In this document: piece by piece, positions 13,387 through 30,507 of the stretch
Numbering within the stretch: the first letter of the stretch is position 1
How the letters are laid out: each line of letters starts with the position of its first letter
DNA from: Escherichia coli
GTDB taxonomy: Bacteria; Pseudomonadota; Gammaproteobacteria; Enterobacterales; Enterobacteriaceae
Assembly: GCF_050920415.1 (NCBI RefSeq)
Contig: NZ_CP169309.1
Length of the DNA: 64,000 nt
Strand: one strand, 5' to 3'
The notes under the pieces: generated by a model
Database searches by the model: none
Seen by the model: only the letters and a program-made list of their open reading frames with translations
Told to the model about the DNA's origin: nothing
Position numbers and translations under genes: made by a program

Positions 13387-13389
13387 TCC

Positions 13390-15032: not shown

Positions 15033-16253
15033 ATGAAATACCACTCAGAACCTCTGGTTCCCCATAAATCGGCCCTGATGCAAATGCCCGCAAATCTCCT
15101 TGCCGAAGATGTCTGTTTACCTGCCGCGATCATTAAAAAGCAGGCCCTGGAGAACAACATTACGTGGATGCAGCGTTATGCTGACGCGCGCGGCGTTTCG
15201 CTGGCACCGCACGGTAAAACCACCATGACGCCGTGGATTTTTCAGGCGCAGCAGGCGGCTGGTGCCTGGGCAATAGGTGTCGGTAGCGCATGGCAGGCTG
15301 GTGCGGCAATGGCGAGCGGTATTCAGCGAGTGCTGATGGTTAACCAGCTGGTCGGCAAGGCGAATATGCAGTTGATTGCCCGGTTGCAACAACATTACCC
15401 GACGGTCGATTTTATCTGCTGTATCGACAGCATTGAGAACGCCCGCGCTTTGTCTGCCTTTTTTGCCAGTCAGCAACAGACACTGAACGTGATGATTGAG
15501 CTGGGTGTTCCCGGCGGACGCTGTGGTTGCCGCTCAACGGATGCCGCACTGGCACTGGCTAAACAGGCGGCCCAATTACCAGGGCTACGTCTGCGCGGGC
15601 TTGAGTTATATGAAGGTGTTTTACACGGTGACGATCCACAACCGCAGGTAGAAGCTCTGCTGCGGGATGCCGCACAACTGGCCTGTGATATGGCAAGTCT
15701 GGTTGATGGCGAGTTTATTCTCACCGGAGCAGGCACGGTCTGGTATGACGTGGTGTGCAATATCTGGCTGGCGGCAGAAAAGCCTGATAACTGCCGCATT
15801 GTTATTCGCCCTGGCTGCTACATCACTCACGACACCGGGATCTACGACGCGGCACAACAACAGTTGCTTGCCCGCGATCCTGTGGCCTGCGATCTTGCAG
15901 GCGATCTCACATCTGCGCTGGAACTGGTCGCCATGGTGCAATCGGTGCCGGAAGCTGATCGTGCGGTGGTAAATTTTGGTAAGCGTGATTGCGCCTTCGA
16001 CGCCGGACTGCCGCAACCAGTCGCCCACTACCGCAACGGCAAATCACTGGCATTTGATCCACAGGCGATTCGCAGTACAGGTATTATGGATCAGCACTGC
16101 ATGTTGCAACTGTCAGCTAATAGCGACGTGCAAGTGGGGGATATTCTGGTGTTTGGCACATCGCATCCGTGCCTGACCTTCGACAAATGGAAAACGTTGT
16201 TATTGGCTGATGACGACTACAACGTACTGGCAGAGCTGGATACGCTGTTTTGA
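15033..16253 (+). CDS. PLP-dependent enzyme of the alanine-racemase fold (DSD1-like D-serine or D-threo-hydroxy-amino-acid dehydratase/aldolase type)
   Basis: 406 aa ORF with an N-terminal region containing the HGKT lysine motif characteristic of fold-type III PLP enzymes; divergent from the deacylase-RidA-transporter operon. Confidence 0.7.
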   Translation: MKYHSEPLVPHKSALMQMPANLLAEDVCLPAAIIKKQALENNITWMQRYADARGVSLAPHGKTTMTPWIFQAQQAAGAWAIGVGSAWQAGAAMASGIQRVLMVNQLVGKANMQLIARLQQHYPTVDFICCIDSIENARALSAFFASQQQTLNVMIELGVPGGRCGCRSTDAALALAKQAAQLPGLRLRGLELYEGVLHGDDPQPQVEALLRDAAQLACDMASLVDGEFILTGAGTVWYDVVCNIWLAAEKPDNCRIVIRPGCYITHDTGIYDAAQQQLLARDPVACDLAGDLTSALELVAMVQSVPEADRAVVNFGKRDCAFDAGLPQPVAHYRNGKSLAFDPQAIRSTGIMDQHCMLQLSANSDVQVGDILVFGTSHPCLTFDKWKTLLLADDDYNVLAELDTLF

Positions 16254-16261
16254 TAGCGCAG

Positions 16262-16283
16262 ATGGCGGGTTCCTTCCCGCCAT
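16262..16283. terminator. hairpin between convergent genes (ATGGCGGG-loop-CCCGCCAT)
   Basis: Inverted repeat read directly in the 58 bp gap. Confidence 0.45.
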
Positions 16284-16311
16284 TAATTGTATGTATATCC
16301 TTAAGTATCTA

Positions 16312-17322
16312 TCAGCTACTTATGGATCGAATATCATCATAGATTGACTGGCTGATCTCTACCCCCTGTTGCTCACTGCGCAATCGTGCCTGGTAGCGAC
16401 GTTCTCCCGGCAGGCGCGCGCCCTGAGCCTGCATCTGACTAAACAGCGTTTCCGCCCTTGCCAGATGCCTCCCTGCATCCTCACCAAGAAAACGCTGCGG
16501 ATCGAGTGCCAGGATCAACTCTCCACCATACGGCAAACCACCTGCACCGTTATCCCACGCAAGAGACTCAGCACTGGTCATATCGCCAATCAGTGGTCCC
16601 GCAATCAGCTCCACCATCGCTGCCAGTGCCGAACCTTTATGACCGCCGAAGGTTAACATTGCTCCGTCCAACACAGCTTGTGGATCGGTGGTGGCATTGC
16701 CATGGCTGTCGATCCCCCAACCTTCAGGAAGTGATTTCCCGGCTCGCTGATGTAACTGAATCTCCCCGCGTGCCGCCGCACTGGTCGCCATATCAAAAAT
16801 AAATGGCGGCAGCTTGTCGCGCGGCCAACCAAACGCGATTGGGTTAGTACCAAAAAGAGGTTTGCCCCCCCCTTTCGGCGCAACCCAGGCATGGCTTGGC
16901 GTGGTCGCCAGCGCCACCAGTCCGGCTTCAGTCAGCGGTTCAACATCCGCAAATAAGGCGGAGTAGTGAACACAATGATTAATTGCCAGTGCTGCAATCC
17001 CGCACTGACGCGTTTTCTCGATCAGTAACGGTAGTGCCTGCTGATAAGCCAACAGCGAATAGCCACCTTTGGCATCGGCCTTAACGATTGCCGGAGCCTG
17101 AGATTCCACTGTCGGCAGAGCATCGGCAGAGACTTTCCCTTTTCGCAGCGTGTCAACAATCCCCAGCAGTCGCCATAAACCGTGCGAGGCACAACCGTCG
17201 CGCTCCCCGGCGGTAACGTTTTTCGCGATCACCACTGCATGTTGCTCACTAAATCCGTTACTAATGAGCGCATGATAGGCTAGTGCGTAAGCCTCTGATA
17301 ACGAGAGGATTACTCTATCCAT
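16312..17322 (-). CDS. Ldh_2-family (malate/L-lactate dehydrogenase-like) oxidoreductase, delta1-pyrroline-2-carboxylate or delta1-piperideine-2-carboxylate reductase-like
   Basis: 336 aa ORF resembling the Ldh_2 family, which includes Pyr2C/Pip2C reductases and ureidoglycolate dehydrogenase. Confidence 0.7.
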   Translation of the reverse strand: MDRVILSLSEAYALAYHALISNGFSEQHAVVIAKNVTAGERDGCASHGLWRLLGIVDTLRKGKVSADALPTVESQAPAIVKADAKGGYSLLAYQQALPLLIEKTRQCGIAALAINHCVHYSALFADVEPLTEAGLVALATTPSHAWVAPKGGGKPLFGTNPIAFGWPRDKLPPFIFDMATSAAARGEIQLHQRAGKSLPEGWGIDSHGNATTDPQAVLDGAMLTFGGHKGSALAAMVELIAGPLIGDMTSAESLAWDNGAGGLPYGGELILALDPQRFLGEDAGRHLARAETLFSQMQAQGARLPGERRYQARLRSEQQGVEISQSIYDDIRSISS

Positions 17323-17333
17323 TTTCTACTCCT

Positions 17334-18935
17334 TTATTCTTCTTCATCCCCGTTAAAGTTCGCCCGAGGAAGACAGGTGTATGCGCCCCAGTAATAAATT
17401 CCCAACGACATCAGCGCGACGACGATAGTATCCCACGGGTGCCCTATAATGCCGCTACCGCCAAAGCTACCCAGCCAGGAAAACAGCATAATCAGGGCAT
17501 AGAAGGCAATAAGCCACAATGAAGATTTAATCTGCTGCGCCAGGCTGACATGCTGAACAGGCACTTTCGACTTGCAACTCACGTAAACCACAAACATTAC
17601 GATTTGTAGCCCCAGCAGCCAGGAAAGCGTCCCCCAACCAGACCAAAAAACAATCAGTGCGGAAATCATAAAAGAGAGTGGGCCAAGCACCGCAAAACCA
17701 CGAACGCGGAACGGGCGCGGCATATCAGGTGCATTACGGCGCAGTCCTGCAGCTGTAACCGGCGCGATGGCGTAGCTCAGTACCAGAGCCGCAGAAACCA
17801 CGCTAATCAATTGCTCCCACGACGGGAACGGTAGCGTCCAGAAGATAGATAAACCAAACGTCAGCCACAGTGCCGGACGTGGAATACCTGACTCCTTATC
17901 GATATGAGTAAAGGTTTTAAAGAATGTCCCCGCCTTCGCCCAGCCATAGATCACACGCGGTGTCGCATTCATGTAAATATTGCCAGTGCCGCTGGGAGAC
18001 ACAATAGCATCACATACCACCATAAATGCCAGCCAGCCCATCCCGAGAGTAATGGCGATATCGCGATATGGCAGCGAATAGTTCTTACTGATCTCCGCCC
18101 AACCACCACTTAGCGATTCAGTTGGAATACTGCCCAAAAAGGCGACCTGCAACAGAACGTAGATGATGGTCGAGAGAATTACCGAGAGGATCAGCGCAAA
18201 TGGGATGGTACGTTGCGGATTTTGCGCCTCGCTGGCTACGGAGATAATCGGTGTCAGTCCAAGGTAAGCGAAGATAATCCCACCCGCGCTAATTGCCGCT
18301 TCCACTCCTGACATACCAAATGGAGCCATACCCTGTATATGCAGATTCTCCGGTTTGAAGAAGGCAAATAACGTTATTACCACCAGCAACGGCACCAGAA
18401 ACTTCAGCACGCTAATAAAATTGTTCGAGCGAGCGAAAGTTTTAACACTGTAGTAGTTCAGGGCAAAAAAGAAGCACAACAGTAAGAACTGCACCACCCA
18501 GCCTAACAGCGTCGGGTCACTACTCCCCGTCTGCGTCAGCGCAGGAAACCAGGCGGCGGCATATTGCCGTGCGGCTACAATCTCAATGGAGATCAGGCTG
18601 GAGAAGGCAATCAGGGTAATAAAACCCAGCAGATAGCCCATCAATTCGCCGTGCGAAAATACCGGGTAACGAATAATACCGCCCGCGCGGGGAAGCGCCG
18701 CCCCCAGTTCGCAGTAAATAATCCCCAGTAGCAGCACCGCAAAACCGCCAATAACCCAGGAAGCAATCCCTGCTGGGCCAGCGATCGATGCGACATGGCT
18801 GGCAGCAAACAGCCAGCCAGAACCGAAAATCGCCCCCAGACCAATAAAGGTCAAGTCGGTGAGCGTTAACTGCTTTTTAAACTTCCCCGACTCAACAACG
18901 ACGGTTTGCGTGCTTTGGGTAGAAGGAATTGTCAT
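17334..18935 (-). CDS. APC-superfamily amino-acid permease
   Basis: Polytopic membrane protein. The start was moved to the internal ATG at 18935 to remove a 40 bp overlap with the upstream gene. Confidence 0.8.
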   Translation of the reverse strand: MTIPSTQSTQTVVVESGKFKKQLTLTDLTFIGLGAIFGSGWLFAASHVASIAGPAGIASWVIGGFAVLLLGIIYCELGAALPRAGGIIRYPVFSHGELMGYLLGFITLIAFSSLISIEIVAARQYAAAWFPALTQTGSSDPTLLGWVVQFLLLCFFFALNYYSVKTFARSNNFISVLKFLVPLLVVITLFAFFKPENLHIQGMAPFGMSGVEAAISAGGIIFAYLGLTPIISVASEAQNPQRTIPFALILSVILSTIIYVLLQVAFLGSIPTESLSGGWAEISKNYSLPYRDIAITLGMGWLAFMVVCDAIVSPSGTGNIYMNATPRVIYGWAKAGTFFKTFTHIDKESGIPRPALWLTFGLSIFWTLPFPSWEQLISVVSAALVLSYAIAPVTAAGLRRNAPDMPRPFRVRGFAVLGPLSFMISALIVFWSGWGTLSWLLGLQIVMFVVYVSCKSKVPVQHVSLAQQIKSSLWLIAFYALIMLFSWLGSFGGSGIIGHPWDTIVVALMSLGIYYWGAYTCLPRANFNGDEEE

Positions 18936-18946
18936 AGTGATGCCCT

Positions 18947-20557
18947 TCAATGAGTCAACAAGGAGGAAATGGCTTCCCGGGTCCACTGGCCGTTAACCAA
19001 GCGCAGCAGGTTTAATGGATTACTGTCCTGCAGCGCAGGCGGTAATAGTGCAGCGGGTGCATTTTGCAGGCATACCGGGCGCAGAAAACGAGTAATGGCC
19101 AGCGTGCCTACGGACGTGCCGCGCGCGTCGGTGGTTGCCGGGAACGGACCACCGTGTACCATGGCATCGCAAACCTCGACGCCGGTGGGATAGCCATTGA
19201 ACAATACGCGTCCGGCTTTATCAGCCAACAATGGCAATAAACGACCAGCCAGTTGCCGGTCATCCTCATCCGCCTGAAGTGTGGCAGTAAGTTGCCCTTG
19301 CAGAGCGTTAATTACCTGCAACAACTCCGCTTCATCAGCGGCTTCAACCACAATCGCGAGCGGCCCGAACACTTCCTCCTGCAACAGAGGATCTTTTTCA
19401 AGTATGTTTGCCGCCTGAGCCTGATAGAGACGAGTTTCTGCTCGTCCGGCTTGATGATTATCGTCCCCCGCCAAACACCGAATAGTCGGATGTTCTGCCA
19501 GTTTCTCCACGCTGTGGCGATAGTGCTCAAGCGTGGAGGCGTTTAGCATGAGTTGCGGTGTGGCGGCATTCACTTTCTCAACCAGTTGCTGTAAAAAGTC
19601 CGCGTTTTTCTCCCCTTTCAGCAACACAATCAGGCCTGGTTTAGTGCAGAACTGTCCACATCCCAACGTGAACGACGCGACTAAATCGCGGGCCAGCGTA
19701 TCGGCACGTACTGATAGCGCCTGCGGCAGAATGAAAAAGGGATTGAGAGCCGACATTTCGGCAAAAACCGGTATCGGCTGTGGACGCTGTTGGGCCAAAC
19801 GAAAGAGCGCCATGCCACCACGTAATGAGCCGGTAAAACCCACCGCCTGAATTGCGGGATGTTTCACCAGTTCAGCACCGATATCAGTACCGAAAATCAT
19901 ATTGAATACGCCTGCGGGCATGGCGCATTTAGTCACGGCACGAGCGATCGCTGATGCGATAATTTCTGCCGTTGCCATATGCCCAGGATGCGCTTTCACA
20001 ACTACCGGGCATCCTGCAGCCAGTGCCGCTGCTGTATCACCACCGGCGATAGAAAAAGCGAGTGGAAAGTTGCTGGCACCAAATACCGCCACCGGCCCGA
20101 GAGCCGTTTTATACTGGCGCAAATCCGGTCGAGGCAGAGGCTGACGCTCCGGCAACGCAGTATCAATTCTTACCTCAAACAGATCGCCCCGACGTAATAA
20201 CCCGGCAAACATGCGCATCTGCCCGCTGGTTCTTGCCCGCTCTCCCTGTAAACGCGCCAGGGGTAACGCTGTCTCCTGATGTGCCGTAGCGAACAGTTCG
20301 TCGCCTGCTGCATCAAGTTCATCGGCGATGGTTTCTAAAAAATCGGCACGTTGCCCGGCATTGGTCAGTGAATAGCACACAAAAGCCTGCTGCGCCGCAA
20401 TAGCCGCCTGCTCGGCCTCCTCCACGGAGGCCGGGTAAAAACGTTGCCCGGTAGGTTCGCCATCCTGCGCTCGCAGGCTGACCAGCGACGGTTCACCGCT
20501 GGCAACACGTTGCCCGGCGATGAACTGTTGCCCGGTGAAAGGGAAAGTTTCAGTCAT
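18947..20557 (-). CDS. NAD(P)-dependent aldehyde dehydrogenase, 2,5-dioxovalerate (alpha-ketoglutarate semialdehyde) dehydrogenase-like
   Basis: 536 aa ALDH-superfamily protein with catalytic Cys context (GQFCTKPG) and a length typical of KGSADH. Confidence 0.8.
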   Translation of the reverse strand: MTETFPFTGQQFIAGQRVASGEPSLVSLRAQDGEPTGQRFYPASVEEAEQAAIAAQQAFVCYSLTNAGQRADFLETIADELDAAGDELFATAHQETALPLARLQGERARTSGQMRMFAGLLRRGDLFEVRIDTALPERQPLPRPDLRQYKTALGPVAVFGASNFPLAFSIAGGDTAAALAAGCPVVVKAHPGHMATAEIIASAIARAVTKCAMPAGVFNMIFGTDIGAELVKHPAIQAVGFTGSLRGGMALFRLAQQRPQPIPVFAEMSALNPFFILPQALSVRADTLARDLVASFTLGCGQFCTKPGLIVLLKGEKNADFLQQLVEKVNAATPQLMLNASTLEHYRHSVEKLAEHPTIRCLAGDDNHQAGRAETRLYQAQAANILEKDPLLQEEVFGPLAIVVEAADEAELLQVINALQGQLTATLQADEDDRQLAGRLLPLLADKAGRVLFNGYPTGVEVCDAMVHGGPFPATTDARGTSVGTLAITRFLRPVCLQNAPAALLPPALQDSNPLNLLRLVNGQWTREAISSLLTH

Positions 20558-20572
20558 AATCTCTCCCCCACC

Positions 20573-21514
20573 TCAAAGGCCCACGTCCGGCAGCGCAGGG
20601 CGAGTCGCCAGCGATTTCTCAACGATCGCCACAACCTGGGCACGCGTTTCGCCTTCCAGCGCCAGACGCGGCGGGCGAGTAACCTCACTGCCACGCCCCA
20701 ACAGGGCTTCACACAGCTTGATACACTGCACCAGGTCAGGGCGCGCATCGAGATGTAGCAGTGGCATAAACCAGCGATAGAGCGCCATAGCCTCGGCAAA
20801 ACGCTGTTGTTTTGCCAAACGGAACAACGTCTCACCTTCGCGTGGGAAGGCGTTTGACATCCCGGAAATCCAGCCTTCAGCGCCCACCGCAATGCTCTCA
20901 ACCACGACATCGTCCAGCCCGGCAAACAGCACAAAGCGATCGCCTACCGCATTGCGAAGATCGATAAAGCGCCGGGTATCACCAGAGGAATCTTTAAAGC
21001 AGACGATATTTTCGCAATCAGCTAGTGTTTCCAGGATATCAGGGGTGACATCGTTTTTATAAATCGGAGGGTTGTTATAGACCATGATCGGCAGGTCGGT
21101 CGCCATTGCCACACTGCGGAAGTGCGCTGCAGTTTCATGAGGCTTAGATGAGTAAACCAAAGCAGGCATCACCATAACGCCATCAACACCGACCTTCTCG
21201 GCCTCTTTTGCCATCGTCCGGGCAAAGGCAGTGGTGAACTCAGCAACCCCGGCAATCACCGGAATTTTTCCGCCAGCAGCATCTTTCGCTACTTCGATGA
21301 TTTGCAGTTTTTCCTGAGTGGTAAGTGACGTGTTTTCTCCAACGCTGCCGCACACTACCAGGCCAGAAACCCCATCTTTAACCAAGTTTTTCATCACCGC
21401 ATGTGTGGCATCCAAATCAAGTGAGTAATCACTACGGAACTGAGTGCTAACCGCCGGAAAAACGCCACTCCAGTTAATCGCTTTATTGCTCATCTTTGGT
21501 TTCCTTATTGTCAA
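20573..21514 (-). CDS. DapA/DHDPS-family lyase, candidate delta1-pyrroline-4-hydroxy-2-carboxylate deaminase
   Basis: 313 aa ORF of the dihydrodipicolinate synthase/N-acetylneuraminate lyase family; the specific function is inferred from the neighbouring epimerase, oxidase and KGSADH genes. Confidence 0.75.
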   Translation of the reverse strand: MTIRKPKMSNKAINWSGVFPAVSTQFRSDYSLDLDATHAVMKNLVKDGVSGLVVCGSVGENTSLTTQEKLQIIEVAKDAAGGKIPVIAGVAEFTTAFARTMAKEAEKVGVDGVMVMPALVYSSKPHETAAHFRSVAMATDLPIMVYNNPPIYKNDVTPDILETLADCENIVCFKDSSGDTRRFIDLRNAVGDRFVLFAGLDDVVVESIAVGAEGWISGMSNAFPREGETLFRLAKQQRFAEAMALYRWFMPLLHLDARPDLVQCIKLCEALLGRGSEVTRPPRLALEGETRAQVVAIVEKSLATRPALPDVGL

Positions 21515-21644
21515 TCTGTTGCGTCAATGTGAATTAAAAGTGAATCTTCATTAACAGATTGACCTCTCCTTGCGCTGGCGGCTTGTCGATTTTCTTTCCC
21601 CAGGATGACGAAATTAGCACAATGCCCAGTTGTGATTTGTCGTG

Positions 21645-22472
21645 TTACCCCATCAACGTCATCCGAAAATCACGCGGAGTTGAGCCTGTCATCGCCTTAA
21701 ATTGACGGCTGAACGCACTATGGTCGGTATAACCGCACTGCAAAGCGATATCGGTAATCGGCGTAGTTCCGGCAAGTAACTCGGTGGCCTTTTCCAGTCG
21801 AACTTTGTGGATCATCTGGCGAGGCGTCAGGTGAAAAATCCGCTTACAGTAGCGTTCAATTTGCGCCACAGACATTCCGCTCATTTCAGTCAACTCTTCC
21901 ATAGAGATCGCACGGTAGTAGTGATTGCGAATGTGCTCATCGATGATCGCCAGGCGTTGCCAGGCTGGATGACGCGCATGTGCTTCCTGGAGATCATGTG
22001 AGATCCCCGCCATTCCGATCACACGCCCCTGCATATCGCGCAGTGCCAGTTTCTGCGTCAGACACCAGCCGCGTTCGCGACCGTTATAGAGATGCATCTC
22101 TAGTTGATCACGTAACGCAACCCCTTCGCGTAGCACACGCAGATCCTGTTCGGTATATCCTCGTCCCAATGCAGAAGGGAAAACATCTGCCGATGTCTTC
22201 CCCAGTAGCGATGTCACATTTTTAAACCCGCAGCGTCGCGCCAACGTCATATTGACTAACAGATAACGGGCCTGCATATCCTTAATAAAAAACACCACAT
22301 TAGGAATGGCGTTGAGAAGTGGCGCAATCAGCGCCAGTGCATTTAACAACGCCTGAATATTTTGTGGACGCTGCCGCGCCAGCCCCTCGCAAATCTGACT
22401 AAGTTCATCAACGGCCAGCGCAGTTTCTTCACAAGGGGAAAACTCAAAAGTCTGATGACATATGCTGGACAT
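21645..22472 (-). CDS. AraC-family transcriptional regulator
   Basis: 275 aa ORF with a C-terminal AraC-type double helix-turn-helix; divergent from the epimerase operon. Confidence 0.85.
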   Translation of the reverse strand: MSSICHQTFEFSPCEETALAVDELSQICEGLARQRPQNIQALLNALALIAPLLNAIPNVVFFIKDMQARYLLVNMTLARRCGFKNVTSLLGKTSADVFPSALGRGYTEQDLRVLREGVALRDQLEMHLYNGRERGWCLTQKLALRDMQGRVIGMAGISHDLQEAHARHPAWQRLAIIDEHIRNHYYRAISMEELTEMSGMSVAQIERYCKRIFHLTPRQMIHKVRLEKATELLAGTTPITDIALQCGYTDHSAFSRQFKAMTGSTPRDFRMTLMG

Positions 22473-22783
22473 AGTTGTTCCTCATAGCGATTGAGGATGA
22501 ATGTTTATTAACCTTTGATTAACATGACAAGTACTGAAAGTGCATTTTGCGATCCTTCCGTGTATTTCCACTTTCCGTTGCTCTCACTACTGACGAACGC
22601 TTGTTCCTGGTCTAACACATCACTAACAAAATGATTAATATTAAAAAAACATGACCACTCCTGGTGTCGCGAAATAATTCACTGTGCTGATTTCGTCATT
22701 TCCCTTGCAGAAACCCTTCAAGCGATAAAGTTGCAATTACGCCAGCATTTAGAAACATTTTGTTAACCACATGGAGCCAGAGC

Positions 22784-23731
22784 ATGCATGTTCCTCACCA
22801 AATCACTGAACTCAGGGCTATCGACTCCCATACCGGAGGCGAGCCGACCCGGTTGATTATTGATGGCTTTCCCGATCTCGGTAGCGGCAGCATGGCCGAA
22901 CGGCGCGAACGTTTTACCCGGGAATTTGACTGTTGGCGCAAAGCCATAATTCTTGAGCCACGCGGCAACGACGTGCTGGTCGGCGCGCTACTGTGTGAGC
23001 CGCTTTCCCCTCATGCCACGGCGGGTGTCATCTTTTTCAATAATGCCGGATACCTGAATATGTGTGGGCACGGCACTATCGGGCTTGTTGCCTCACTGGC
23101 CTGGTTGGGTCGTATTAAACCGGGCGTTCATCGCATTGAAACCCCTGTCGGAGATGTAAACGCCACATTGCATGATGATGGCAGTGTGTCAGTTGAAAAT
23201 GTTCCGGCCTGGCGCTGGCAAAAACAGGTAAGTGTGGAAACAGCGGTGGGTACAGTTACAGGAGATATCGCCTGGGGTGGTAACTGGTTTTTTCTTATTA
23301 ATGATCATCCATTTGATATTGTGCCGGAACAAATCCCGCAGTTAACTGAATACGCCTGGGCGGTACGGGAAGGGCTCGATAATGCGGGGATCGTCGGTGA
23401 AAACGGTGGCATTATCGATCATATCGAACTTTTTGCCGATGACGATCAGGCGGATAGCCGTAGCTTCGTCCTTTGCCCAGGTAAAGCGTGGGATCGTTCT
23501 CCCTGTGGCACAGGCACCAGCGCCAAGCTGGCCTGTCTGGCAGAAGACGGAAAACTCGCCCCCGGCGATAGCTGGCGCCAGGCCAGTATTATTGGTAGCC
23601 AGTTTACGGCTCACTATACCCGCCATGGCGAGAAGATTATCCCCACCATTCGTGGAGAAGCCTGGGTATGCGGCGACAATCGCCTGCTCCTTAATCCGGA
23701 CGATCCCTTCTGCTGGGGGATTAGCCTGTGA
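22784..23731 (+). CDS. proline racemase family enzyme, 4-hydroxyproline 2-epimerase-like
   Basis: Two catalytic Cys motifs (MCGHG and SPCGTGTSA) typical of the proline racemase / 4-Hyp epimerase family; GGAG Shine-Dalgarno before the ATG at 22784. Confidence 0.85.
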
Positions 23732-24837
23732 ACAGCACGGAGGTCATTGTCATCGGCGCAGGCATCATCGGGGCCTCCTGCGCATGGCAACTGGCAAAAC
23801 GTGGTGTGAGAGTCACGCTAATTGACAACGGCCGAGCCGGAGCGACAGCTGCAGGAATGGGGCATCTGGTCTGTATGGATGATGATCCCGCAGAACTGAC
23901 GCTCTCTGCCTGGTCGCTGGAACTGTGGCGCACGTTGACGCCTCAGTTACCGGAAAGCTGTGCCTGGTGCGGCTGTGGCACATTGTGGCTGGCGGAAACA
24001 CCAGAAGAACTGGAAATTGCCCGAGAGAAGCAGCGACGTCTGGCATCGCATGAGGTCAACAGCGAAATGCAAAGCGCTGCACAATTGGCTGAGCGGGAAG
24101 TTATGCTACGCCCGGGGTTATCCGGCGGGTTATGGGTGCCGGGCGATGGCATCGTCTACGCCCCAAACGTTGCCCGTTGGTTTATTGCCAATGCAGGCGA
24201 TAAGCTGACACATCTGGTTGATCCGGCCATTCGTCTGGAAGAACCTACAGTGACATTACAGAGCGGTCGCCAATTACGCGCCGATGCGATCGTCGTCGCC
24301 TGTGGTCTGGGGGCCAATACGTTACTGGGGGAGCCATGGCTGCGCGCGAAGAAAGGCCAACTTGCGATTACCGATCGCTATGGTCCACTAGTCAATCACC
24401 AACTGGTTGAACTTGGCTACGGCGCCAGTGCTCACGGCAGCGGCACGTCAGTGGCCTTTAATGTGCAGCCTCGTCCCACCGGACAACTGCTGATTGGCTC
24501 TTCACGTCAGTTCGATAACGAGGATCGCGAACTGGACCTTCCACTCCTGGCCGCGATGCTGTCCAGAGCGCAACACTTTCTGCCGTCTCTGGCAACGCTC
24601 AATATTATTCGTTGCTGGAGCGGTTTTCGCGCCGCCTCGCAGGATGGTAATCCCCTTCTCGGCCCGCATCCTTCCCGTGCTGGCGTCTGGCTGGCTCTTG
24701 GTCATGAAGGGCTTGGAGTGACTACTGCCCCCGCCAGCGCGTCGCTGTTAGTCGCACAGTTGCTGGGTGAACGCAGCCTCGTATCTCCTGCCCCCTGGCT
24801 ACCCGCAAGACTTATCTCCCTGGAGGCCAGCGCATGA
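23728..24837 (+). CDS. FAD-dependent oxidoreductase (DadA/HcnC/OoxB-like), candidate D-hydroxyproline dehydrogenase beta subunit
   Basis: N-terminal FAD dinucleotide-binding motif [14 protein letters not shown]; the GTG start overlaps the upstream stop, suggesting translational coupling. Confidence 0.8.
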
Positions 24838-25097
24838 GTGGCACCATTAGAATTTTTATTGCCGGACAGCCCTGGTTTGTCCCGACGGGTATTAGCGTAG
24901 CGGCGGCACTGGCCTTAACTGATAACCCCATTACGCGCCTTTCGGTGAGCGGGCAACCACGTACGCCCTTCTGCGGCATGGGCGTTTGCCAGGAGTGTCG
25001 GGTGAGCGTTAATGGTCGTCGGGTACCCGGTTGTCAGACCCTTTGCCAGCCAGACATGCAGATTGAAAGGAGCGGATATGCAGACCTTACAGTGTGA
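24834..25097 (+). CDS. small [2Fe-2S]-binding subunit (HcnA / sarcosine-oxidase-alpha N-terminus-like)
   Basis: 87 aa ORF with a Cys cluster (CGMGVCQEC...GC); ATGA overlap with the upstream gene. Confidence 0.65.
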   Translation: MSGTIRIFIAGQPWFVPTGISVAAALALTDNPITRLSVSGQPRTPFCGMGVCQECRVSVNGRRVPGCQTLCQPDMQIERSGYADLTV

Positions 25098-26343
25098 CAT
25101 TTTAATTCTCGGTGCAGGCCCGGCGGGGCTATCAGCGGCTCTGGCCGCAGCAAAGTGCGATAAGCAGGTCATCATCCTTGATGATAATCCGCTTCCTGGC
25201 GGTCAAATCTGGCGCGATGGTCCACAAAGTCAGCTTCCTCCACTGGCCCGCCATTACCGTGATGCCGTTGCCAACGAATCGCGGATTCGTGTGCTCAACG
25301 GAGCGAGGTTAATCGCCCGCCGCAGCGAAAATTGTGTACTGTTCGAAACTGCAGAAGACTACGGCACAGTAAGCTGGAATAAGCTGATTCTCTGCTGCGG
25401 CGCACGTGAACTTGCATTACCGTTTCCAGGCTGGACGCTGCCCGGTGTCAGTGGCGCGGGTGGGCTACAGGCACAAATGAAACAGGGGCTGCACATGGCA
25501 AATCAAAAAGTGGTTATTGCCGGAAGTGGGCCACTATTACTGGCCGTTGCTGACACCGTTCGCCGTGCCGGAGGCGAAGTGGTGGCGATTGTGGAACAAG
25601 CCCCACGCGCAGCGCTATTGCGCTTTGGCTTCGGACTATGGCGTTGGCCGGGTAAGCTGCGCCAACTGGCGACACTATTTCCTCGTCGTTATCTCAGTGC
25701 AAGCCAGGTTATCGCTGCACACGGCGACGCCACATTGCGTGCTGTCACCCTCCGACACAATGGTAGGGAAATCACACTGCCATGCGACAAATTAGCTATT
25801 GGCTATGGTCTAGTGCCTAATCTTGAACCTGGGTTGTTCTTCAGTTGTGCCATCAGCAATGATGCCGTGCAGGTGGATGAACTGCAGCGAACCTCGGTTA
25901 AAAACATCTATGCAGCCGGTGAATGTACTGGATTTGGTGGCAGTGAACTGGCGCTGATAGAAGGTGAAATAGCCGGACTTTGTGCGGCCGATCGCGCCCA
26001 TGAAACAAAGTTTCTGCAACAAAAACGCACCAGGTGGCAGCGCTTCGCCCTCGCGCTTCATAAAACCTTTGCCCTGCCCGAAAGTCTCAAGCGCGTTGCG
26101 ACACCAGAAACGCTGCTTTGCCGCTGCGAAGACATTCGCTGTGGCGATGTAGAGCAAGCACAAAGCTGGCTGCAGGCCAAATTAACGACCCGCTGCGGCA
26201 TGGGAGCCTGTCAGGGGAGAACCTGCGCCGCTACCGCACGATGGTTGTACGGCTGGCCATTACTGGAACCGCGAGCCCCCCTTTCCCCCTCTCGCAGCGA
26301 AACGTTAATTGCCCTGGCGCAACAACCACCTTCGCCACATTAA
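25078..26343 (+). CDS. FAD/NAD(P)-binding oxidoreductase with C-terminal BFD-like [2Fe-2S] domain (HcnB/OoxA-like), candidate D-hydroxyproline dehydrogenase alpha subunit
   Basis: N-terminal DILILGAGPAGLSAA motif and a C-terminal Cys cluster (CRCEDIRCGD...CGMGACQGRTC); strong AAGGAG Shine-Dalgarno before the ATG at 25078. Confidence 0.8.
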   Translation: MQTLQCDILILGAGPAGLSAALAAAKCDKQVIILDDNPLPGGQIWRDGPQSQLPPLARHYRDAVANESRIRVLNGARLIARRSENCVLFETAEDYGTVSWNKLILCCGARELALPFPGWTLPGVSGAGGLQAQMKQGLHMANQKVVIAGSGPLLLAVADTVRRAGGEVVAIVEQAPRAALLRFGFGLWRWPGKLRQLATLFPRRYLSASQVIAAHGDATLRAVTLRHNGREITLPCDKLAIGYGLVPNLEPGLFFSCAISNDAVQVDELQRTSVKNIYAAGECTGFGGSELALIEGEIAGLCAADRAHETKFLQQKRTRWQRFALALHKTFALPESLKRVATPETLLCRCEDIRCGDVEQAQSWLQAKLTTRCGMGACQGRTCAATARWLYGWPLLEPRAPLSPSRSETLIALAQQPPSPH

Positions 26344-26370
26344 ATCCCTGATAATAATTTGGCGTTAAGG

Positions 26371-26435
26371 GCTTATCTGGTCTGGTAAATCTTACAAATT
26401 CAATATATTGCAGAATCTATCCAGGCCAGATAAGC
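26371..26435. repeat. 15 bp imperfect inverted repeat (GCTTATCTGGTCTGG ... CCAGGCCAGATAAGC) at the right boundary of the tsr-btsT island
   Basis: Read directly; one mismatch between arms, about 35 nt spacer. Confidence 0.4.
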
Positions 26436-26535
26436 GTAGCGCAGCTGGCAATTATTGAGCCGTAAACGAGGAATCTACCCAGAAAAAATTTCGTGATCTC
26501 AATCACATATTAGCTCGATGAATAATTCTTGCCCA

Positions 26536-26719: not shown

Positions 26720-28870
26720 ATGGATACTAAAAAGATATTCAAGCACATACCCTGGGTGATTCTTGGAATCATCGGTGCATTCTGCCTCGCGGTAGTTGCA
26801 TTACGTCGGGGGGAGCACGTCAGCGCCCTGTGGATCGTGGTCGCCTCTGTGTCAGTGTATCTGGTGGCTTATCGCTACTACAGTCTGTACATCGCCCAGA
26901 AAGTGATGAAACTCGACCCCACGCGCGCGACGCCTGCGGTTATTAACAACGACGGTCTGAACTATGTTCCGACCAACCGTTACGTGTTGTTTGGTCACCA
27001 CTTCGCTGCTATCGCCGGTGCGGGTCCGCTGGTTGGTCCGGTTCTCGCCGCGCAGATGGGTTACCTGCCTGGCACACTGTGGCTGCTGGCGGGGGTAGTG
27101 CTGGCCGGTGCGGTACAGGACTTTATGGTGCTGTTTATCTCTTCTCGCCGTAACGGCGCATCTCTCGGTGAGATGATCAAAGAAGAGATGGGGCCAGTAC
27201 CGGGGACTATCGCGCTGTTTGGCTGTTTCTTAATCATGATCATCATCCTCGCCGTTCTGGCGCTGATTGTGGTTAAAGCCCTGGCCGAAAGTCCGTGGGG
27301 TGTCTTCACCGTTTGCTCAACCGTACCAATTGCGCTGTTTATGGGTATCTACATGCGCTTTATCCGTCCTGGGCGTGTAGGTGAAGTCTCTGTTATTGGT
27401 ATCGTGCTGCTGGTTGCCTCTATCTACTTCGGTGGCGTAATTGCTCACGATCCGTACTGGGGTCCGGCACTGACCTTTAAAGACACCACCATTACCTTCG
27501 CACTGATTGGCTATGCGTTTGTTTCCGCACTGCTGCCGGTGTGGCTGATCCTCGCACCGCGCGACTATCTGGCAACCTTCCTGAAAATCGGCGTTATCGT
27601 CGGCCTGGCGCTGGGTATCGTGGTGCTGAACCCGGAACTGAAAATGCCTGCGATGACCCAGTACATTGACGGTACTGGCCCGCTGTGGAAAGGCGCTCTG
27701 TTCCCGTTCCTGTTCATCACCATCGCCTGTGGTGCGGTATCTGGCTTCCACGCGCTGATCTCTTCCGGTACGACGCCGAAACTGCTGGCTAACGAAACCG
27801 ACGCGCGTTTCATTGGCTACGGCGCAATGCTGATGGAGTCCTTCGTGGCGATTATGGCGCTGGTTGCTGCGTCCATCATCGAACCGGGTCTTTACTTCGC
27901 GATGAATACCCCGCCTGCGGGCCTTGGCATCACCATGCCTAACCTGCATGAAATGGGTGGCGAGAACGCGCCGATCATCATGGCACAACTGAAAGACGTT
28001 ACCGCACACGCGGCAGCGACTGTCAGCTCCTGGGGCTTCGTGATTTCGCCAGAGCAGATCCTGCAAACCGCGAAAGACATTGGTGAGCCTTCTGTCCTGA
28101 ACCGTGCAGGTGGTGCGCCGACGCTGGCGGTAGGTATCGCTCACGTGTTCCACAAAGTGCTGCCGATGGCTGACATGGGCTTCTGGTATCACTTCGGCAT
28201 TCTGTTCGAAGCCCTGTTCATCCTGACCGCGCTGGATGCGGGTACCCGTTCTGGCCGCTTTATGCTGCAAGACCTGCTGGGTAACTTCATCCCGTTCCTG
28301 AAAAAAACCGACTCTCTGGTTGCCGGTATCATCGGTACTGCGGGCTGTGTGGGTCTGTGGGGCTACCTGCTGTATCAGGGCGTGGTCGATCCGCTGGGCG
28401 GCGTTAAGAGCCTGTGGCCGCTGTTCGGTATCTCCAACCAGATGCTGGCAGCCGTAGCGCTGGTACTGGGCACCGTTGTGCTGATTAAGATGAAGCGCAC
28501 CCAATACATCTGGGTGACTGTTGTTCCGGCTGTATGGCTGCTTATCTGCACCACCTGGGCGCTGGGCCTGAAACTGTTCAGCACCAACCCGCAGATGGAA
28601 GGCTTCTTCTACATGGCAAGCCAGTACAAAGAGAAGATTGCTAACGGTACTGACCTGACGGCACAGCAGATTGCCAACATGAACCACATCGTTGTGAACA
28701 ACTACACCAACGCAGGCCTGAGTATTCTGTTCCTGATTGTGGTGTACAGCATCATCTTCTACGGTTTCAAAACCTGGCTGAAGGTGCGTAACAGCGACAA
28801 ACGTACTGACAAAGAAACACCGTACGTTCCAATCCCGGAAGGCGGCGTGAAGATTTCTTCGCACCACTAA
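26720..28870 (+). CDS. btsT: pyruvate/H+ symporter BtsT (CstA family)
   Basis: The translation from the ATG at 26720 ([19 protein letters not shown]...) is recognised as YjiY/BtsT; large polytopic CstA-type protein. Confidence 0.93.
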
Positions 28871-29000: not shown

Positions 29001-29204
29001 ATGTTTGGTAACTTAGGACAGGCAAAAAAATATCTCGGCCAGGCGGCAAAGATGTTGATTGGCATTCCAGACTACGACAACTACGTCGAGCATATGAAGA
29101 CCAACCATCCCGACCAGCCGTACATGAGCTATGAAGAATTCTTCCGCGAACGCCAGAACGCGCGCTACGGCGGCGATGGTAAAGGCGGTATGCGCTGTTG
29201 TTAA
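29001..29204 (+). CDS. yjiX: small protein YjiX (YbdD/YjiX family, partner of CstA-type transporters)
   Basis: 67 aa from the internal ATG ([33 protein letters not shown]...); immediately downstream of btsT. Confidence 0.85.
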
Positions 29205-29214
29205 TGGAGAGAGC

Positions 29215-30171: not shown

Positions 30172-30204
30172 TTTTAGATGATGGCCGCCATGTGGCGGCC
30201 TGAA

Positions 30205-30507
30205 TTATTTTTTATTCTGATCGCGCAGCATCGCTTCACGTAAAATTGCGTTCAGGCGAGTTTGATAGCCTTTACCTGGTCGCTTCAACCATTCCATCAC
30301 ATCAGCATCAATACGCACCGAAGCCTGAGTTTTCAATGGCCGATAAAACTTACCGCGTTCTGCGTTAGACCATTGCTCATCGCTGGAAGGTGGGATATCA
30401 CTGTAATCAATATCTTCGTCGGATTTATTCGCCAGCGCCTTCAGTTCGGCCTCATGCTGCACATCGAGTGAAGAGGAGGTCCCTCGTTTATGTTTAACCA
30501 TGCTCAT
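30205..30507 (-). CDS. BrnA-like antitoxin (DUF4415/COG3514)
   Basis: 100 aa ORF; the C-terminal pattern YQTRLNAILREAML resembles BrnA-family antitoxins; its start overlaps the stop of a BrnT-like remnant. Confidence 0.6.
   Translation of the reverse strand: MSMVKHKRGTSSSLDVQHEAELKALANKSDEDIDYSDIPPSSDEQWSNAERGKFYRPLKTQASVRIDADVMEWLKRPGKGYQTRLNAILREAMLRDQNKK

What the first reader, a model, noticed from the sequence alone, without database searches (positions are those of the whole stretch)
20573..26343. Predicted complete 4-hydroxyproline catabolic module (epimerase, three-subunit dehydrogenase, deaminase, KGSA dehydrogenase) with AraC regulator
The gene set matches the known trans-4-hydroxy-L-proline pathway. 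A proline-racemase-family enzyme with both catalytic Cys is followed by translationally coupled beta (DadA-like FAD), gamma (small 2Fe-2S) and alpha (FAD plus BFD-like 2Fe-2S) subunits resembling the heterotrimeric D-hydroxyproline dehydrogenase of Pseudomonas aeruginosa (LhpBEF; HcnABC/opine-oxidase architecture). Divergent from these are an AraC regulator, a DapA-family enzyme (Pyr4H2C deaminase candidate), a KGSADH-like ALDH, an APC permease and an Ldh_2 reductase. This would let the strain convert host collagen-derived hydroxyproline to 2-oxoglutarate, a trait not present in K-12.
Basis: partly seen in the sequence, partly recalled or inferred. Interest (0 to 1): 0.65.

Follow-up and report, generated by a model that had tools for sequence, protein, structure and literature searches.

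The report
Hydroxyproline-degradation gene island in E. coli
A rare 10-kb insert in this E. coli chromosome carries a complete, intact copy of the well-studied Pseudomonas pathway that turns the collagen amino acid hydroxyproline into 2-oxoglutarate, so it is a new host for a known pathway, not a new kind of system.

Summary
The full module is nine genes at window 16312-26343, so it extends beyond the stated 20573-26343.

- **Location:** it sits in a 10,258-bp insert (16235-26492) between tsr and btsT.
- **Orthology:** eight of the nine products are full-length orthologues of the Pseudomonas aeruginosa lhp proteins. Identities are LhpA epimerase 67%, D-hydroxyproline dehydrogenase beta/gamma/alpha 56/55/50%, LhpC deaminase 75%, KGSA dehydrogenase 59%, Pyr2C reductase 62% and the PAS-AraC regulator LhpR 58%. 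The ninth is an APC permease, 73-74% identical to the transporter that occupies the PP_1259 position in P. putida-type clusters.
- **Motifs:** the catalytic and cofactor motifs are all present.
- **Rival functions:** the beta subunit is at most 27% identical to Ti-plasmid opine oxidases.
- **Regulation:** a conserved 20-nt motif lies upstream of both divergent operons here and about 100 nt upstream of lhpA homologues in dozens of other bacteria. It is a candidate LhpR operator.
- **Distribution:** the module is in 34 of 5,426 complete E. coli genomes, always chromosomal and at this locus, and is absent from a K-12-like chromosome. Serratia shares the nine-gene order. A contig whose DapA-like protein belongs to a Klebsiella/Raoultella cluster carries the nine genes plus four of the neighbouring island genes.

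Function in E. coli is inferred, not tested. This is a new member of a known kind, of modest interest.

The parts
16235..26492 (.). 10,258-bp insert carrying the hydroxyproline module. It is absent from E. coli genomes that have only the neighbouring 5-gene module, and absent from K-12-like genomes.
   Evidence: blastn of L082 and L083 against the window and the junction sequences. Found in 34/5426 genomes. GC is 54.1% against 50.1% for the whole window. No integrase, flanking repeat or tRNA.
16312..17322 (-). Ldh_2-family reductase, orthologue of PA1252 (LhpD; NADPH-dependent Pyr2C/Pip2C reductase).
   Evidence: 62% identity over the full length to PA1252. Best PDB hit is P. syringae DpkA, 1WTJ/2CWH, E=1e-73. 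PaLhpD biochemistry is in PMC3958920.
17334..18935 (-). APC-family amino-acid permease, the candidate hydroxyproline importer.
   Evidence: NCBIfam TIGR00909 amino acid transporter, below the cut-off. 73-74% identical to the APC gene in the PP_1259 position of P. putida-type Hyp clusters (L075, L077, L080). The role of PP_1259 comes from bioRxiv 10.1101/2023.07.21.550116.
18947..20557 (-). NADP-type aldehyde dehydrogenase, orthologue of PA1253 (alpha-ketoglutaric semialdehyde dehydrogenase, LhpG).
   Evidence: 59% identity over 524 aa to PA1253. The catalytic GQFCTKPG Cys and the FAEMS Glu are conserved. PDB hits 3V4C and 1EYY.
20573..21493 (-). DHDPS/NAL-family protein, orthologue of PA1254 (LhpC, Pyr4H2C deaminase).
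   Evidence: 75% identity over the full length to PA1254. The Schiff-base Lys in FKDSSG is conserved. [quoted passage not shown]
21605..21624 (-). Conserved 20-nt motif CATTGTGCTAATTTCGTCAT upstream of the DapA-like operon; candidate LhpR operator.
   Evidence: Inverted-repeat pair I9. Two exact matches in the window against 0.32 expected. The same motif is conserved upstream of Hyp operons in related loci: 76 core matches against about 2.9 expected.
21645..22472 (-). PAS_4 + HTH_18 (AraC-family) regulator, orthologue of LhpR (PA1261).
   Evidence: Pfam PAS_4 at residues 53-165 and HTH_18 at 195-270. 58% identity over 260 aa to PA1261, which has the same architecture. LhpR/PP_4602 respond to L-hydroxyproline.
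22680..22699 (+). Second copy of the motif (CACTGTGCTGATTTCGTCAT), 85-104 nt upstream of the epimerase start.
   Evidence: It sits at the same relative position (about -100) in Serratia, Photorhabdus, Burkholderia and about 50 Pseudomonas loci. A variant lies upstream of P. aeruginosa lhpA and PA1252.
22784..23731 (+). 4-hydroxyproline 2-epimerase (LhpA orthologue).
   Evidence: NCBIfam NF010577 at 487.7 bits, above the 442 cut-off. E=1e-140 to 4J9W and 1e-138 to 2AZP (PA1268), both 4HypEs. 67% identity to LhpA. Cys94 and Cys241 are present.
23728..24837 (+). Beta (catalytic, DAO-family FAD) subunit of D-hydroxyproline dehydrogenase.
   Evidence: 56% identity over 365 aa to PA1267. GAGIIG is present at residue 10 and R-x-W at residue 295, as in PA1267. 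At most 27% identity to Ti-plasmid OoxB-type proteins.
24834..25097 (+). Gamma ([2Fe-2S]) subunit.
   Evidence: Pfam Fer2_4, E=7e-17. C-x4-C-x2-C-x11-C motif at Cys47 (motif defined in PMC4575208). 55% identity to PA1266.
25078..26343 (+). Alpha (Pyr_redox_2 FAD, C-terminal four-Cys cluster) subunit.
   Evidence: Pfam Pyr_redox_2 at residues 7-286. GAGPAG at residue 12, and C-x-C-x22-C-x4-C at 348-378 with spacing identical to PA1265. 50% identity over 408 aa to PA1265.

Best explanation
[quoted passage not shown] It works like the P. aeruginosa lhp pathway.

Inferred sequence of events:
1. The APC permease imports hydroxyproline.
2. The PAS-AraC regulator (LhpR orthologue) senses it. The regulator activates both divergent operons through the shared 20-nt site upstream of each.
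3. The Cys/Cys epimerase converts trans-4-L-Hyp to cis-4-D-Hyp.
4. The beta-gamma-alpha flavo-iron-sulfur dehydrogenase oxidises this to delta1-pyrroline-4-hydroxy-2-carboxylate and passes the electrons to the respiratory chain.
5. The DHDPS-family deaminase converts that product to alpha-ketoglutaric semialdehyde and ammonia.
6. The NADP-type aldehyde dehydrogenase oxidises the semialdehyde to 2-oxoglutarate.
7. The Ldh_2 reductase (PA1252 orthologue) is an accessory Pyr2C/Pip2C/Pyr4SH2C reductase. It would feed D-proline or cis-4-L-Hyp side routes to L-proline or into the main path.

Shown here: gene content, order, integrity, orthology, motifs, the conserved cis-element and the distribution. 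Inferred: every catalytic activity, the inducer, operator binding and the growth phenotype.
For: - Full-length blastp orthology to all eight P. aeruginosa Lhp proteins, at 50-75% identity. The comparison locus has the published PA1268..PA1252 order, including the AcnX gene PA1259 and the PAS-AraC gene PA1261 (PMC5144071; PMC8694187).
- The NCBIfam equivalog for 4-Hyp epimerase is passed. The top seven PDB hits are all 4HypEs.
- Cofactor and catalytic motifs are conserved. The motif definitions come from PMC4575208.
- The same nine-gene order occurs in four Serratia species at 55-86% identity. Photorhabdus has it without Ldh_2. A contig (L087) whose DapA-like protein belongs to a Klebsiella/Raoultella cluster has it at 65-92% identity.
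- The 20-nt motif lies upstream of both operons and is conserved at about -100 of lhpA homologues. It also lies upstream of the transporter gene that occupies the PP_1259 position in the P. putida-type locus L075; in P. putida the PP_1259 promoter is L-Hyp-responsive.
- All nine ORFs are intact in three divergent E. coli carriers. PGAP flags none as a pseudogene.
Against: - There is no experimental datum for any E. coli carrier.
- The P. aeruginosa comparison locus is not PAO1 itself. Its LhpA differs from PA1268 (PDB 2AZP) at 17 of 311 residues.
- The permease assignment rests on synteny with P. putida-type clusters, not on a direct comparison with PP_1259.
- Within-E. coli substitutions are too few to show purifying selection: 15 nonsynonymous against 9 synonymous, and 14 against 23.
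- Pfam does not recognise an Fe-S domain in alpha.
- The natural electron acceptor of this dehydrogenase class is not defined. The published assays use artificial acceptors (PMC4575208).
Confidence: 0.85

Rival explanations
1. The module's main role is D-proline, D-lysine/pipecolate or 3-hydroxyproline salvage. The dehydrogenase would make Pyr2C or Pip2C, and the Ldh_2 reductase would convert it to L-proline or L-pipecolate. 4-hydroxyproline would be only a side substrate.
For: The Ldh_2 protein is 62% identical to PA1252 and strongly similar to DpkA. Both are Pyr2C/Pip2C reductases (PMC3958920). Members of the proline-racemase superfamily can be promiscuous (PMC4113996).
Against: The cluster encodes LhpC and KGSA dehydrogenase orthologues, at 75% and 59% identity. 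These are needed only downstream of 4-Hyp oxidation. The epimerase falls in the 4HypE equivalog, not in the ProR or t3HypD models. No Cys/Thr t3Hyp dehydratase or AcnX cis-3-Hyp dehydratase is present. The regulator is an LhpR orthologue.
Confidence: 0.06
2. The beta-gamma-alpha genes encode a flavin opine dehydrogenase (OdhABC/Oox/Nox type) or an HCN synthase (HcnABC type), not a D-hydroxyproline dehydrogenase.
For: These enzymes share the three-subunit architecture and motifs with D-HypDH (PMC4575208). NCBIfam has no specific model and returns only sub-threshold ThiO and SoxA hits.
Against: Beta is 56-60% identical to LhpB-type proteins, but at most 27% identical to Ti-plasmid OoxB/FAD oxidoreductases. 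The gene order is beta-gamma-alpha, and the genes are translationally coupled to a 4-Hyp epimerase, as in P. aeruginosa. No opine transport or arginine/ornithine genes lie nearby. HcnABC was not compared directly.
Confidence: 0.02
3. The module is silent or decaying cargo in E. coli. The genes are intact, but they are either not expressed or not able to support growth. Possible causes include a missing electron-transfer partner or poor assembly of the heterododecamer.
For: The module is rare, in 34 of 5,426 genomes. Most genomes with the neighbouring 5-gene module lack it, 159 of 193. The within-species nonsynonymous to synonymous counts are not clearly skewed. Simple sigma-70 consensus sites are no more frequent than chance.
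Against: All nine ORFs are intact in all three carriers examined. Identity is at least 99.6% across the 34 genomes. Both copies of the operator-like motif are retained. The identical DapA-like protein is recorded on at least 1,000 E. coli contigs. AraC-type activated promoters are expected to lack good -35 boxes (general knowledge).
Confidence: 0.07

Closest known systems
Pseudomonas aeruginosa L-hydroxyproline (lhp) gene cluster, PA1252-PA1269 (LhpA, LhpB/E/F D-HypDH, LhpC, LhpG, LhpD, LhpR)
   Same: It has orthologues of all eight proteins at 50-75% identity over the full length. The lhpA-beta-gamma-alpha order with overlapping stop and start codons is the same. So are the cofactor motifs and the PAS_4+HTH_18 regulator. 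A related motif lies upstream of lhpA and PA1252.
   Different: The E. coli module is compact, with nine genes in 10 kb against 18 genes. It uses an APC permease instead of the ABC transporter PA1256-PA1260. It lacks AcnX (PA1259, cis-3-Hyp dehydratase), the second proline-racemase-family gene (PA1255), and the unrelated EamA, LysR and MFS genes. The deaminase, ALDH, permease and reductase form an operon divergent from the epimerase operon.
Pseudomonas putida KT2440 PP_1255-PP_1259 with regulator PP_4602
   Same: An APC-type transporter next to the epimerase (73-74% identity in P. putida-type loci), the epimerase, a KGSADH-type ALDH (51-53%), an LhpR-type PAS-AraC regulator, and the same 20-nt motif upstream of the transporter gene.
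   Different: The P. putida type uses a homomeric FAD D-HypDH rather than beta-gamma-alpha. Its LhpC belongs to a different DHDPS subfamily that is only 34% identical to the E. coli protein and has PDB relatives 4MPQ, 2HMC and 5CZJ.
Homologous modules in Serratia (plymuthica, grimesii, bockelmannii, oryzae), Photorhabdus, and a contig (L087) whose DapA-like protein clusters with Klebsiella/Raoultella
   Same: Serratia has the identical nine-gene order and orientation at 55-86% identity. L087 carries the nine genes plus four of the neighbouring D-aminoacylase-module genes, collinear, at 65-95% identity.
   Different: They sit in different chromosomal contexts; L087 lies next to hpa genes. GC is higher, 62.7% in L087 against 54.1%. 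Photorhabdus lacks the Ldh_2 gene. I found no experimental work on any of these in the searched library.
Flavin-containing opine dehydrogenase OdhABC / Ti-plasmid Oox and Nox, and HCN synthase HcnABC
   Same: Three-subunit architecture: a DAO-like beta, a small 2Fe-2S gamma and a Pyr_redox alpha. They share the ADP-binding, Fe-S and R-x-W motifs (PMC4575208).
   Different: Beta is at most 27% identical to Ti-plasmid homologues. The genomic context is hydroxyproline catabolism. HcnABC was not compared directly.

Membership tests
4-hydroxyproline 2-epimerase (proline racemase superfamily, EC 5.1.1.8) | Cys/Cys catalytic pair, as opposed to the Cys/Thr or Ser/Thr pairs of t3Hyp dehydratases. | tested here: met
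   MCGH (Cys94) and PCGTG (Cys241) align with Cys88 and Cys236 of the P. aeruginosa LhpA.
4-hydroxyproline 2-epimerase (proline racemase superfamily, EC 5.1.1.8) | Scores above the curated cut-off of an equivalog model, and is closest to biochemically assigned 4HypEs. | tested here: met
   NF010577 scores 487.7 bits against a cut-off of 442. The ProR and t3HypD models score far below their cut-offs. The top PDB hits 4J9W, 2AZP, 4K7X, 4JCI, 4JBD and 4JUU are all deposited as 4HypEs.
4-hydroxyproline 2-epimerase (proline racemase superfamily, EC 5.1.1.8) | Epimerisation of trans-4-L-Hyp to cis-4-D-Hyp in vitro. | not testable with these tools
   Needs an enzyme assay.
Heteromeric (alpha4 beta4 gamma4) D-hydroxyproline dehydrogenase, LhpB/E/F type | Three genes in the order beta-gamma-alpha, in tandem next to lhpA. 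| tested here: met
   Coordinates 23728-26343 with overlapping stops and starts. PA1267-PA1265 have the same order (PMC4575208).
Heteromeric (alpha4 beta4 gamma4) D-hydroxyproline dehydrogenase, LhpB/E/F type | G-x-G-x2-G in both beta and alpha; C-x4-C-x2-C-x11-12-C in gamma; C-x-C-xn-C-x4-C in alpha; R-x-W in beta. | tested here: met
   All are found. The alpha spacer is 22 residues in both E. coli and P. aeruginosa, slightly outside the 15-20 quoted in PMC4575208. Pfam detects Fer2_4 in gamma but no Fe-S domain in alpha.
Heteromeric (alpha4 beta4 gamma4) D-hydroxyproline dehydrogenase, LhpB/E/F type | Closer to LhpB/E/F than to the opine dehydrogenase or HCN synthase subunits. | tested here: inconclusive
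   This holds against Ti-plasmid Oox-type proteins: at most 27% identity against 56% to PA1267. HcnABC and the chromosomal OdhABC were not compared directly.
Heteromeric (alpha4 beta4 gamma4) D-hydroxyproline dehydrogenase, LhpB/E/F type | Specificity for cis-4-D-Hyp; FAD, FMN and 2Fe-2S content; dodecameric assembly. | not testable with these tools
   Needs purified protein.
Pyr4H2C deaminase LhpC (DHDPS/NAL family, EC 3.5.4.22) | Orthology to a characterised LhpC, and retention of the family's Schiff-base Lys. | tested here: met
   75% identity over 304 aa to the PA1254 orthologue. The Lys in FKDSSG is conserved. Identity to the P. putida-type LhpC subfamily is only 34%. NCBIfam has no specific model; the DapA, KdgD and NanA models all score below their cut-offs.
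alpha-Ketoglutaric semialdehyde dehydrogenase LhpG (ALDH superfamily) | Orthology to the Hyp-cluster KGSADH, and the catalytic Cys and Glu. | tested here: met
   59% identity over 524 aa to the PA1253 orthologue. The GQFCTKPG and FAEMS motifs are conserved. The protein is unrelated to the GucD-type KGSADH model, scoring 92 bits against a cut-off of 770.
LhpD/DpkA Pyr2C/Pip2C reductase (Ldh_2 family) | Orthology to PA1252 or DpkA. | tested here: met
   62% identity to the PA1252 orthologue. E=1e-73 to P. syringae DpkA. The sulfolactate, ureidoglycolate and malate dehydrogenase models score below their cut-offs.
LhpR (PAS-AraC hydroxyproline-responsive activator) | An N-terminal PAS domain in place of the canonical AraC ligand domain, a C-terminal HTH_18, and orthology to PA1261. 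| tested here: met
   PAS_4 at residues 53-165 and HTH_18 at 195-270. 58% identity over 260 aa to the PA1261 orthologue. The architecture is as described.
LhpR (PAS-AraC hydroxyproline-responsive activator) | Binds promoters of the Hyp genes and responds to hydroxyproline. | not testable with these tools
   The only evidence is a conserved candidate site. Li & Lu 2016, which may define the operator, is not in the library.

The most novel reading that the evidence does not exclude
The linkage of the hydroxyproline module with the adjacent genes may be functional rather than accidental. Those genes encode an N-acyl-D-amino-acid deacylase, a PLP 'amino acid deaminase', RidA and an SSS transporter. 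The linkage is conserved between E. coli and contig L087, whose DapA-like protein belongs to a Klebsiella/Raoultella cluster. Together the 13-14 genes could form one extended route for acylated or D-configured imino and hydroxy-amino acids, for example from degraded peptides, peptidoglycan or host matrix. That route would give the E. coli lineages that carry it, which include strains labelled O6:H16, a private gut nutrient niche.
Probability: 0.1. Interest if true: 0.55.

Novelty: new member of a known kind. Interest (0 to 1): 0.3.

Why it matters
Hydroxyproline is abundant wherever collagen is degraded, and E. coli K-12 cannot use it. An intact, self-regulated ten-kilobase module would give about 0.6% of sequenced E. 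coli a respiratory carbon and nitrogen source that most of the species lacks. The carriers include several strains labelled O6:H16 and many poultry and human isolates. That makes the module a testable candidate for niche partitioning.

Two practical points follow. The generic PGAP names for eight of the nine genes can now be replaced by specific ones. The conserved 20-nt motif together with the PAS-AraC regulator offers a native hydroxyproline-responsive switch.

The biochemistry itself is already known from Pseudomonas, Azospirillum and Sinorhizobium.

Tried and rejected
1. **Mobility signatures.** I found no integrase, no flanking direct or inverted repeats, no tRNA and no Rfam element at the insert. 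The insert looks like an allelic replacement, not a mobile element.
2. **Sigma-70 and terminator scan.** It found 6 promoter-like sites against 8.2 expected, so it was uninformative.
3. **Classifying the DapA-like protein by PDB.** The best hits (3EB2, 3NA8) are uncharacterised. The P. putida-type LhpC falls in a different subfamily. I resolved this by retrieving the P. aeruginosa cluster through LhpA and walking to PA1254.
4. **Watanabe et al. 2012 (PMC3463351).** This primary paper is not held. I took definitions from later papers by the same group. Note that their subunit letters differ between papers: LhpB/E/F in 2014-15 and LhpB/C/D in 2016.
5. **GTDB scan with the epimerase.** It missed closer Klebsiella/Raoultella-type relatives, which turned up later. 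No claim about the closest donor should rest.
6. **Pfam Fer2_BFD in alpha.** Not detected.
7. **Within-species synonymous and nonsynonymous counts.** Too few differences to decide.
8. **Literature searches.** Searches for hydroxyproline catabolism in E. coli or Enterobacteriaceae found nothing. Absence from this library is not proof of absence.

Full report
**What is there**

The window is E. coli chromosome. It is 100% identical over 16.5 kb to strain MFDS1022581, NZ_CP169399.1. Between the core genes tsr (8700-10364, minus strand) and btsT (26720-28870, plus strand) lie 14 accessory genes.

The finding concerns the right-hand nine. In window coordinates, using PGAP starts, they are:

| Gene | Coordinates | Strand |
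|---|---|---|
| Ldh_2 oxidoreductase | 16312-17322 | - |
| APC permease | 17334-18935 | - |
| ALDH | 18947-20557 | - |
| DHDPS-family protein | 20573-21493 | - |
| AraC-family regulator | 21645-22472 | - |
| 4-hydroxyproline epimerase | 22784-23731 | + |
| FAD oxidoreductase (beta) | 23728-24837 | + |
| 2Fe-2S protein (gamma) | 24834-25097 | + |
| FAD oxidoreductase (alpha) | 25078-26343 | + |

All nine are uninterrupted ORFs.

The translational coupling is real. The epimerase and beta genes overlap as GTGA, and beta and gamma overlap as ATGA. The alpha start lies 20 nt inside gamma.

**Identity of the parts**

The epimerase passes the NCBIfam equivalog NF010577, '4-hydroxyproline epimerase', at 487.7 bits against a cut-off of 442. 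The proline racemase and trans-3-Hyp dehydratase models score far below their cut-offs.

Its best solved relatives are 4J9W (P. fluorescens PFL_1412, E=1e-140) and 2AZP (PA1268, E=1e-138). Five further entries follow that the depositors list as 4-Hyp epimerases. Both catalytic cysteines are present.

To compare the other proteins with experimentally studied ones, I retrieved a P. aeruginosa genome segment. I located LhpA by homology and then walked along the contig. Locus L086 reproduces the published PA1268-PA1252 cluster, in this order:
- LhpA, then beta, gamma and alpha;
- EamA, LysR, HTH and MFS genes;
- the PAS-AraC regulator LhpR (PA1261);
- a solute-binding protein and AcnX (PA1259), followed by two permease genes and an ATPase gene;
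- a second proline-racemase-family gene (PA1255), DHDPS (PA1254), ALDH (PA1253) and Ldh_2 (PA1252).

This matches the descriptions in PMC5144071 and PMC3958920. The strain is not PAO1: its LhpA differs from 2AZP at 17 of 311 positions.

blastp of the window proteins against this cluster gave these identities, all over essentially the full length:

| Window protein | P. aeruginosa protein | Identity |
|---|---|---|
| Epimerase | LhpA | 67% |
| Beta | PA1267 | 56% |
| Gamma | PA1266 | 55% |
| Alpha | PA1265 | 50% |
| AraC-family regulator | LhpR (PA1261) | 58% |
| DHDPS-like | PA1254 (LhpC) | 75% |
| ALDH | PA1253 | 59% |
| Ldh_2 | PA1252 | 62% |

PMC4575208 gives the motifs that define the heteromeric D-hydroxyproline and opine dehydrogenases. 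All are present, at the same positions as in P. aeruginosa:
- G-x-G-x2-G in both beta and alpha;
- C-x4-C-x2-C-x11-C in gamma;
- C-x-C-x22-C-x4-C in alpha;
- R-x-W in beta.

Pfam finds Fer2_4 in gamma, Pyr_redox_2 in alpha, and PAS_4 plus HTH_18 in the regulator. It finds no Fe-S domain in alpha, so 'BFD-like' overstates what can be shown. The DHDPS-family Lys and the ALDH catalytic Cys and Glu are conserved.

tblastn of beta against 72,556 plasmid records covers Ti and Ri plasmids with annotated ooxB genes. It gave at most 27% identity to those genes. By contrast, it gave 47-60% to Burkholderia and Acinetobacter homologues that are large chromosome-sized records in that collection.

With the beta-gamma-alpha order fused to a 4-Hyp epimerase, an opine oxidase is not supported. 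HCN synthase was not compared directly. It is unlikely on context and gene order.

**A nuance on the deaminase**

LhpC-type deaminases come in at least two DHDPS subfamilies. The gene that sits between the epimerase and the ALDH in P. putida-type clusters (L075 10962-11930) is only 34% identical to the E. coli protein. Its solved relatives are 4MPQ, 2HMC and 5CZJ. The E. coli protein belongs to the PA1254 subfamily.

**Regulation**

A 20-nt sequence occurs twice in the window, once upstream of each divergent operon and in the same orientation relative to it:
- CATTGTGCTAATTTCGTCAT at 21605-21624 (minus strand);
- CACTGTGCTGATTTCGTCAT at 22680-22699 (plus strand).

This pair was found as inverted repeat I9. 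One search found two exact matches in 64 kb, against 0.32 expected even when three mismatches are allowed.

The 12-nt core occurs 76 times in 1.5 Mb of related loci, against about 2.9 expected. Nearly all copies lie about 100 nt upstream of the lhpA homologue, or upstream of the partner Hyp operon.

In the P. putida-type locus L075 the motif lies upstream of the APC transporter gene, which occupies the PP_1259 position. In P. putida, the PP_1259 promoter is induced 310-fold by L-hydroxyproline and depends on the LhpR homologue PP_4602. A variant also lies upstream of P. aeruginosa lhpA and PA1252.

I therefore propose this motif as the LhpR operator. That is an inference. The paper that may define the operator (Li & Lu 2016) is not in the library.

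**Distribution and origin**

- The 10,258-bp insert (16235-26492) is present in 34 of 5,426 complete E. coli genomes. It is always chromosomal, always at this locus, and at least 99.6% identical.
- Carriers include several strains labelled O6:H16 (for example 2014EL-1346-6 and M9682-C1), TW10598, and many poultry and human isolates.
- The left-hand 5-gene module (RpiR, SSS transporter, RidA, N-acyl-D-amino-acid deacylase, PLP 'amino acid deaminase') is in 193 genomes. K-12-like chromosomes have neither module.
- The left breakpoint lies inside the last six codons of the deaminase gene. Both alleles encode LAELDTLF, but they use different synonymous codons. This looks like homologous replacement from a diverged allele that carried both modules.
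- Consistent with that, contig L087 carries 13 of the 14 genes collinearly, at 65-95% protein identity. Its DapA-like protein belongs to a cluster named from Klebsiella aerogenes, K. pneumoniae, K. quasipneumoniae, K. variicola and Raoultella.
- Four Serratia species share the nine-gene order at 55-86% identity.
- The module's GC is 54.1%, against 50.1% for the window.
- There is no integrase, att-like repeat or tRNA.

**Mechanism**

The best-supported reading is the four-step pathway set out in PMC3958920. It runs epimerase, then D-Hyp dehydrogenase, then Pyr4H2C deaminase, then KGSA dehydrogenase, and yields 2-oxoglutarate and ammonia. Uptake would be by the APC permease, and induction by the LhpR orthologue.

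The Ldh_2 protein is the orthologue of PaLhpD. That enzyme is an NADPH-dependent Pyr2C/Pip2C reductase that also reduces Pyr4SH2C. Its authors propose that it serves cis-4-L-Hyp degradation. I treat it as accessory.

MG1655 does not grow on any hydroxyproline isomer (PMC4113996, Table 3). The trait would therefore be new to carriers.

**Limits**

- No experiment exists for any E. coli carrier.
- The within-species substitution counts (15 nonsynonymous to 9 synonymous, and 14 to 23) are too few to show constraint.
- The permease role rests on synteny.
- I found no paper on hydroxyproline catabolism in E. coli or Enterobacteriaceae in the library.

**Verdict**

The module is a new member, in a new host, of a well-characterised catabolic system. 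PGAP already names the epimerase. Interest is modest.

Noticed in passing
window 10546-16253: A separate 5-gene accessory module lies immediately left of the Hyp insert. It encodes a MurR/RpiR regulator, an SSS symporter, RidA, an N-acyl-D-amino-acid deacylase and a PLP 'amino acid deaminase' (Ala_racemase_N + D-ser_dehydrat). It is present in 193/5426 E. coli genomes. Only 34 of those also carry the Hyp module. Its substrate is unknown; the best NCBIfam hit for the deaminase, BhcC, scores far below its cut-off.
   Followed up: partly
L087 5158-20151 (Logan ERR3931865 contig) compared with window 11454-26318: 13 of the 14 island genes are collinear in a 61% GC contig, next to hpa (4-hydroxyphenylacetate) genes. 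The block comprises the Hyp module plus the deaminase, deacylase, RidA and SSS genes. The contig's DapA-like protein clusters with Klebsiella aerogenes, K. pneumoniae, K. quasipneumoniae, K. variicola and Raoultella. The two modules are therefore linked outside E. coli, although Serratia has the Hyp module alone.
   Followed up: partly
window 16228-16256 compared with L082 8865-8890: The left boundary of the Hyp insert falls inside the last six codons of the deaminase gene. Both alleles encode LAELDTLF*, but nearly every codon differs synonymously. This suggests allelic replacement by homologous recombination, not insertion by a mobile element.
   Followed up: partly
window 21605-21624 (-) and 22680-22699 (+); about -100 of lhpA homologues in L002-L081; L086 521 and 19630: A 20-nt motif (consensus about CTGTGCCGATTTCGTCATC) is conserved upstream of hydroxyproline operons across Enterobacterales, Burkholderia and Pseudomonas. 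Its core occurs 76 times against about 2.9 expected. It is a candidate LhpR operator.
   Followed up: yes
L075 10962-11930 compared with window 20573-21493: Hydroxyproline clusters use two distant DHDPS-family subfamilies for the deaminase step, only 34% identical to each other. The P. putida/alpha-proteobacterial type is related to PDB 4MPQ, 2HMC and 5CZJ. The PA1254 type is the one found here.
   Followed up: partly
window 26372-26445: A long imperfect hairpin lies just after the alpha gene, inside the insert: GGGCTTATCTGGTCTGG ... CCAGGCCAGATAAGCG, with about 15-bp arms and a loop of about 35 nt. It looks like a REP element or a terminator without a T-run.
   Followed up: no
window 29200-43000: The 'immigration control' region downstream holds a BrnA antitoxin with a truncated BrnT pseudogene, a restriction endonuclease and a type I R-M system (M, S, R). 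It also holds symE with its SymR antisense RNA (Rfam RF01809 at 38476-38552), a GmrSD-domain endonuclease and a truncated DUF262 gene.
   Followed up: no
window about 49727-52886: A low-GC stretch (36-40%) covers a 685-aa pentapeptide-repeat protein gene and an SdiA-regulated-domain gene, between yjiL and yjiJ.
   Followed up: no
literature (PMC3958920 compared with PMC5144071): The same research group uses different letters for the D-HypDH subunits and downstream enzymes in different papers: LhpB/E/F with LhpC and LhpG in 2014-15, and LhpB/C/D in 2016. Names must therefore be tied to locus tags.
   Followed up: yes
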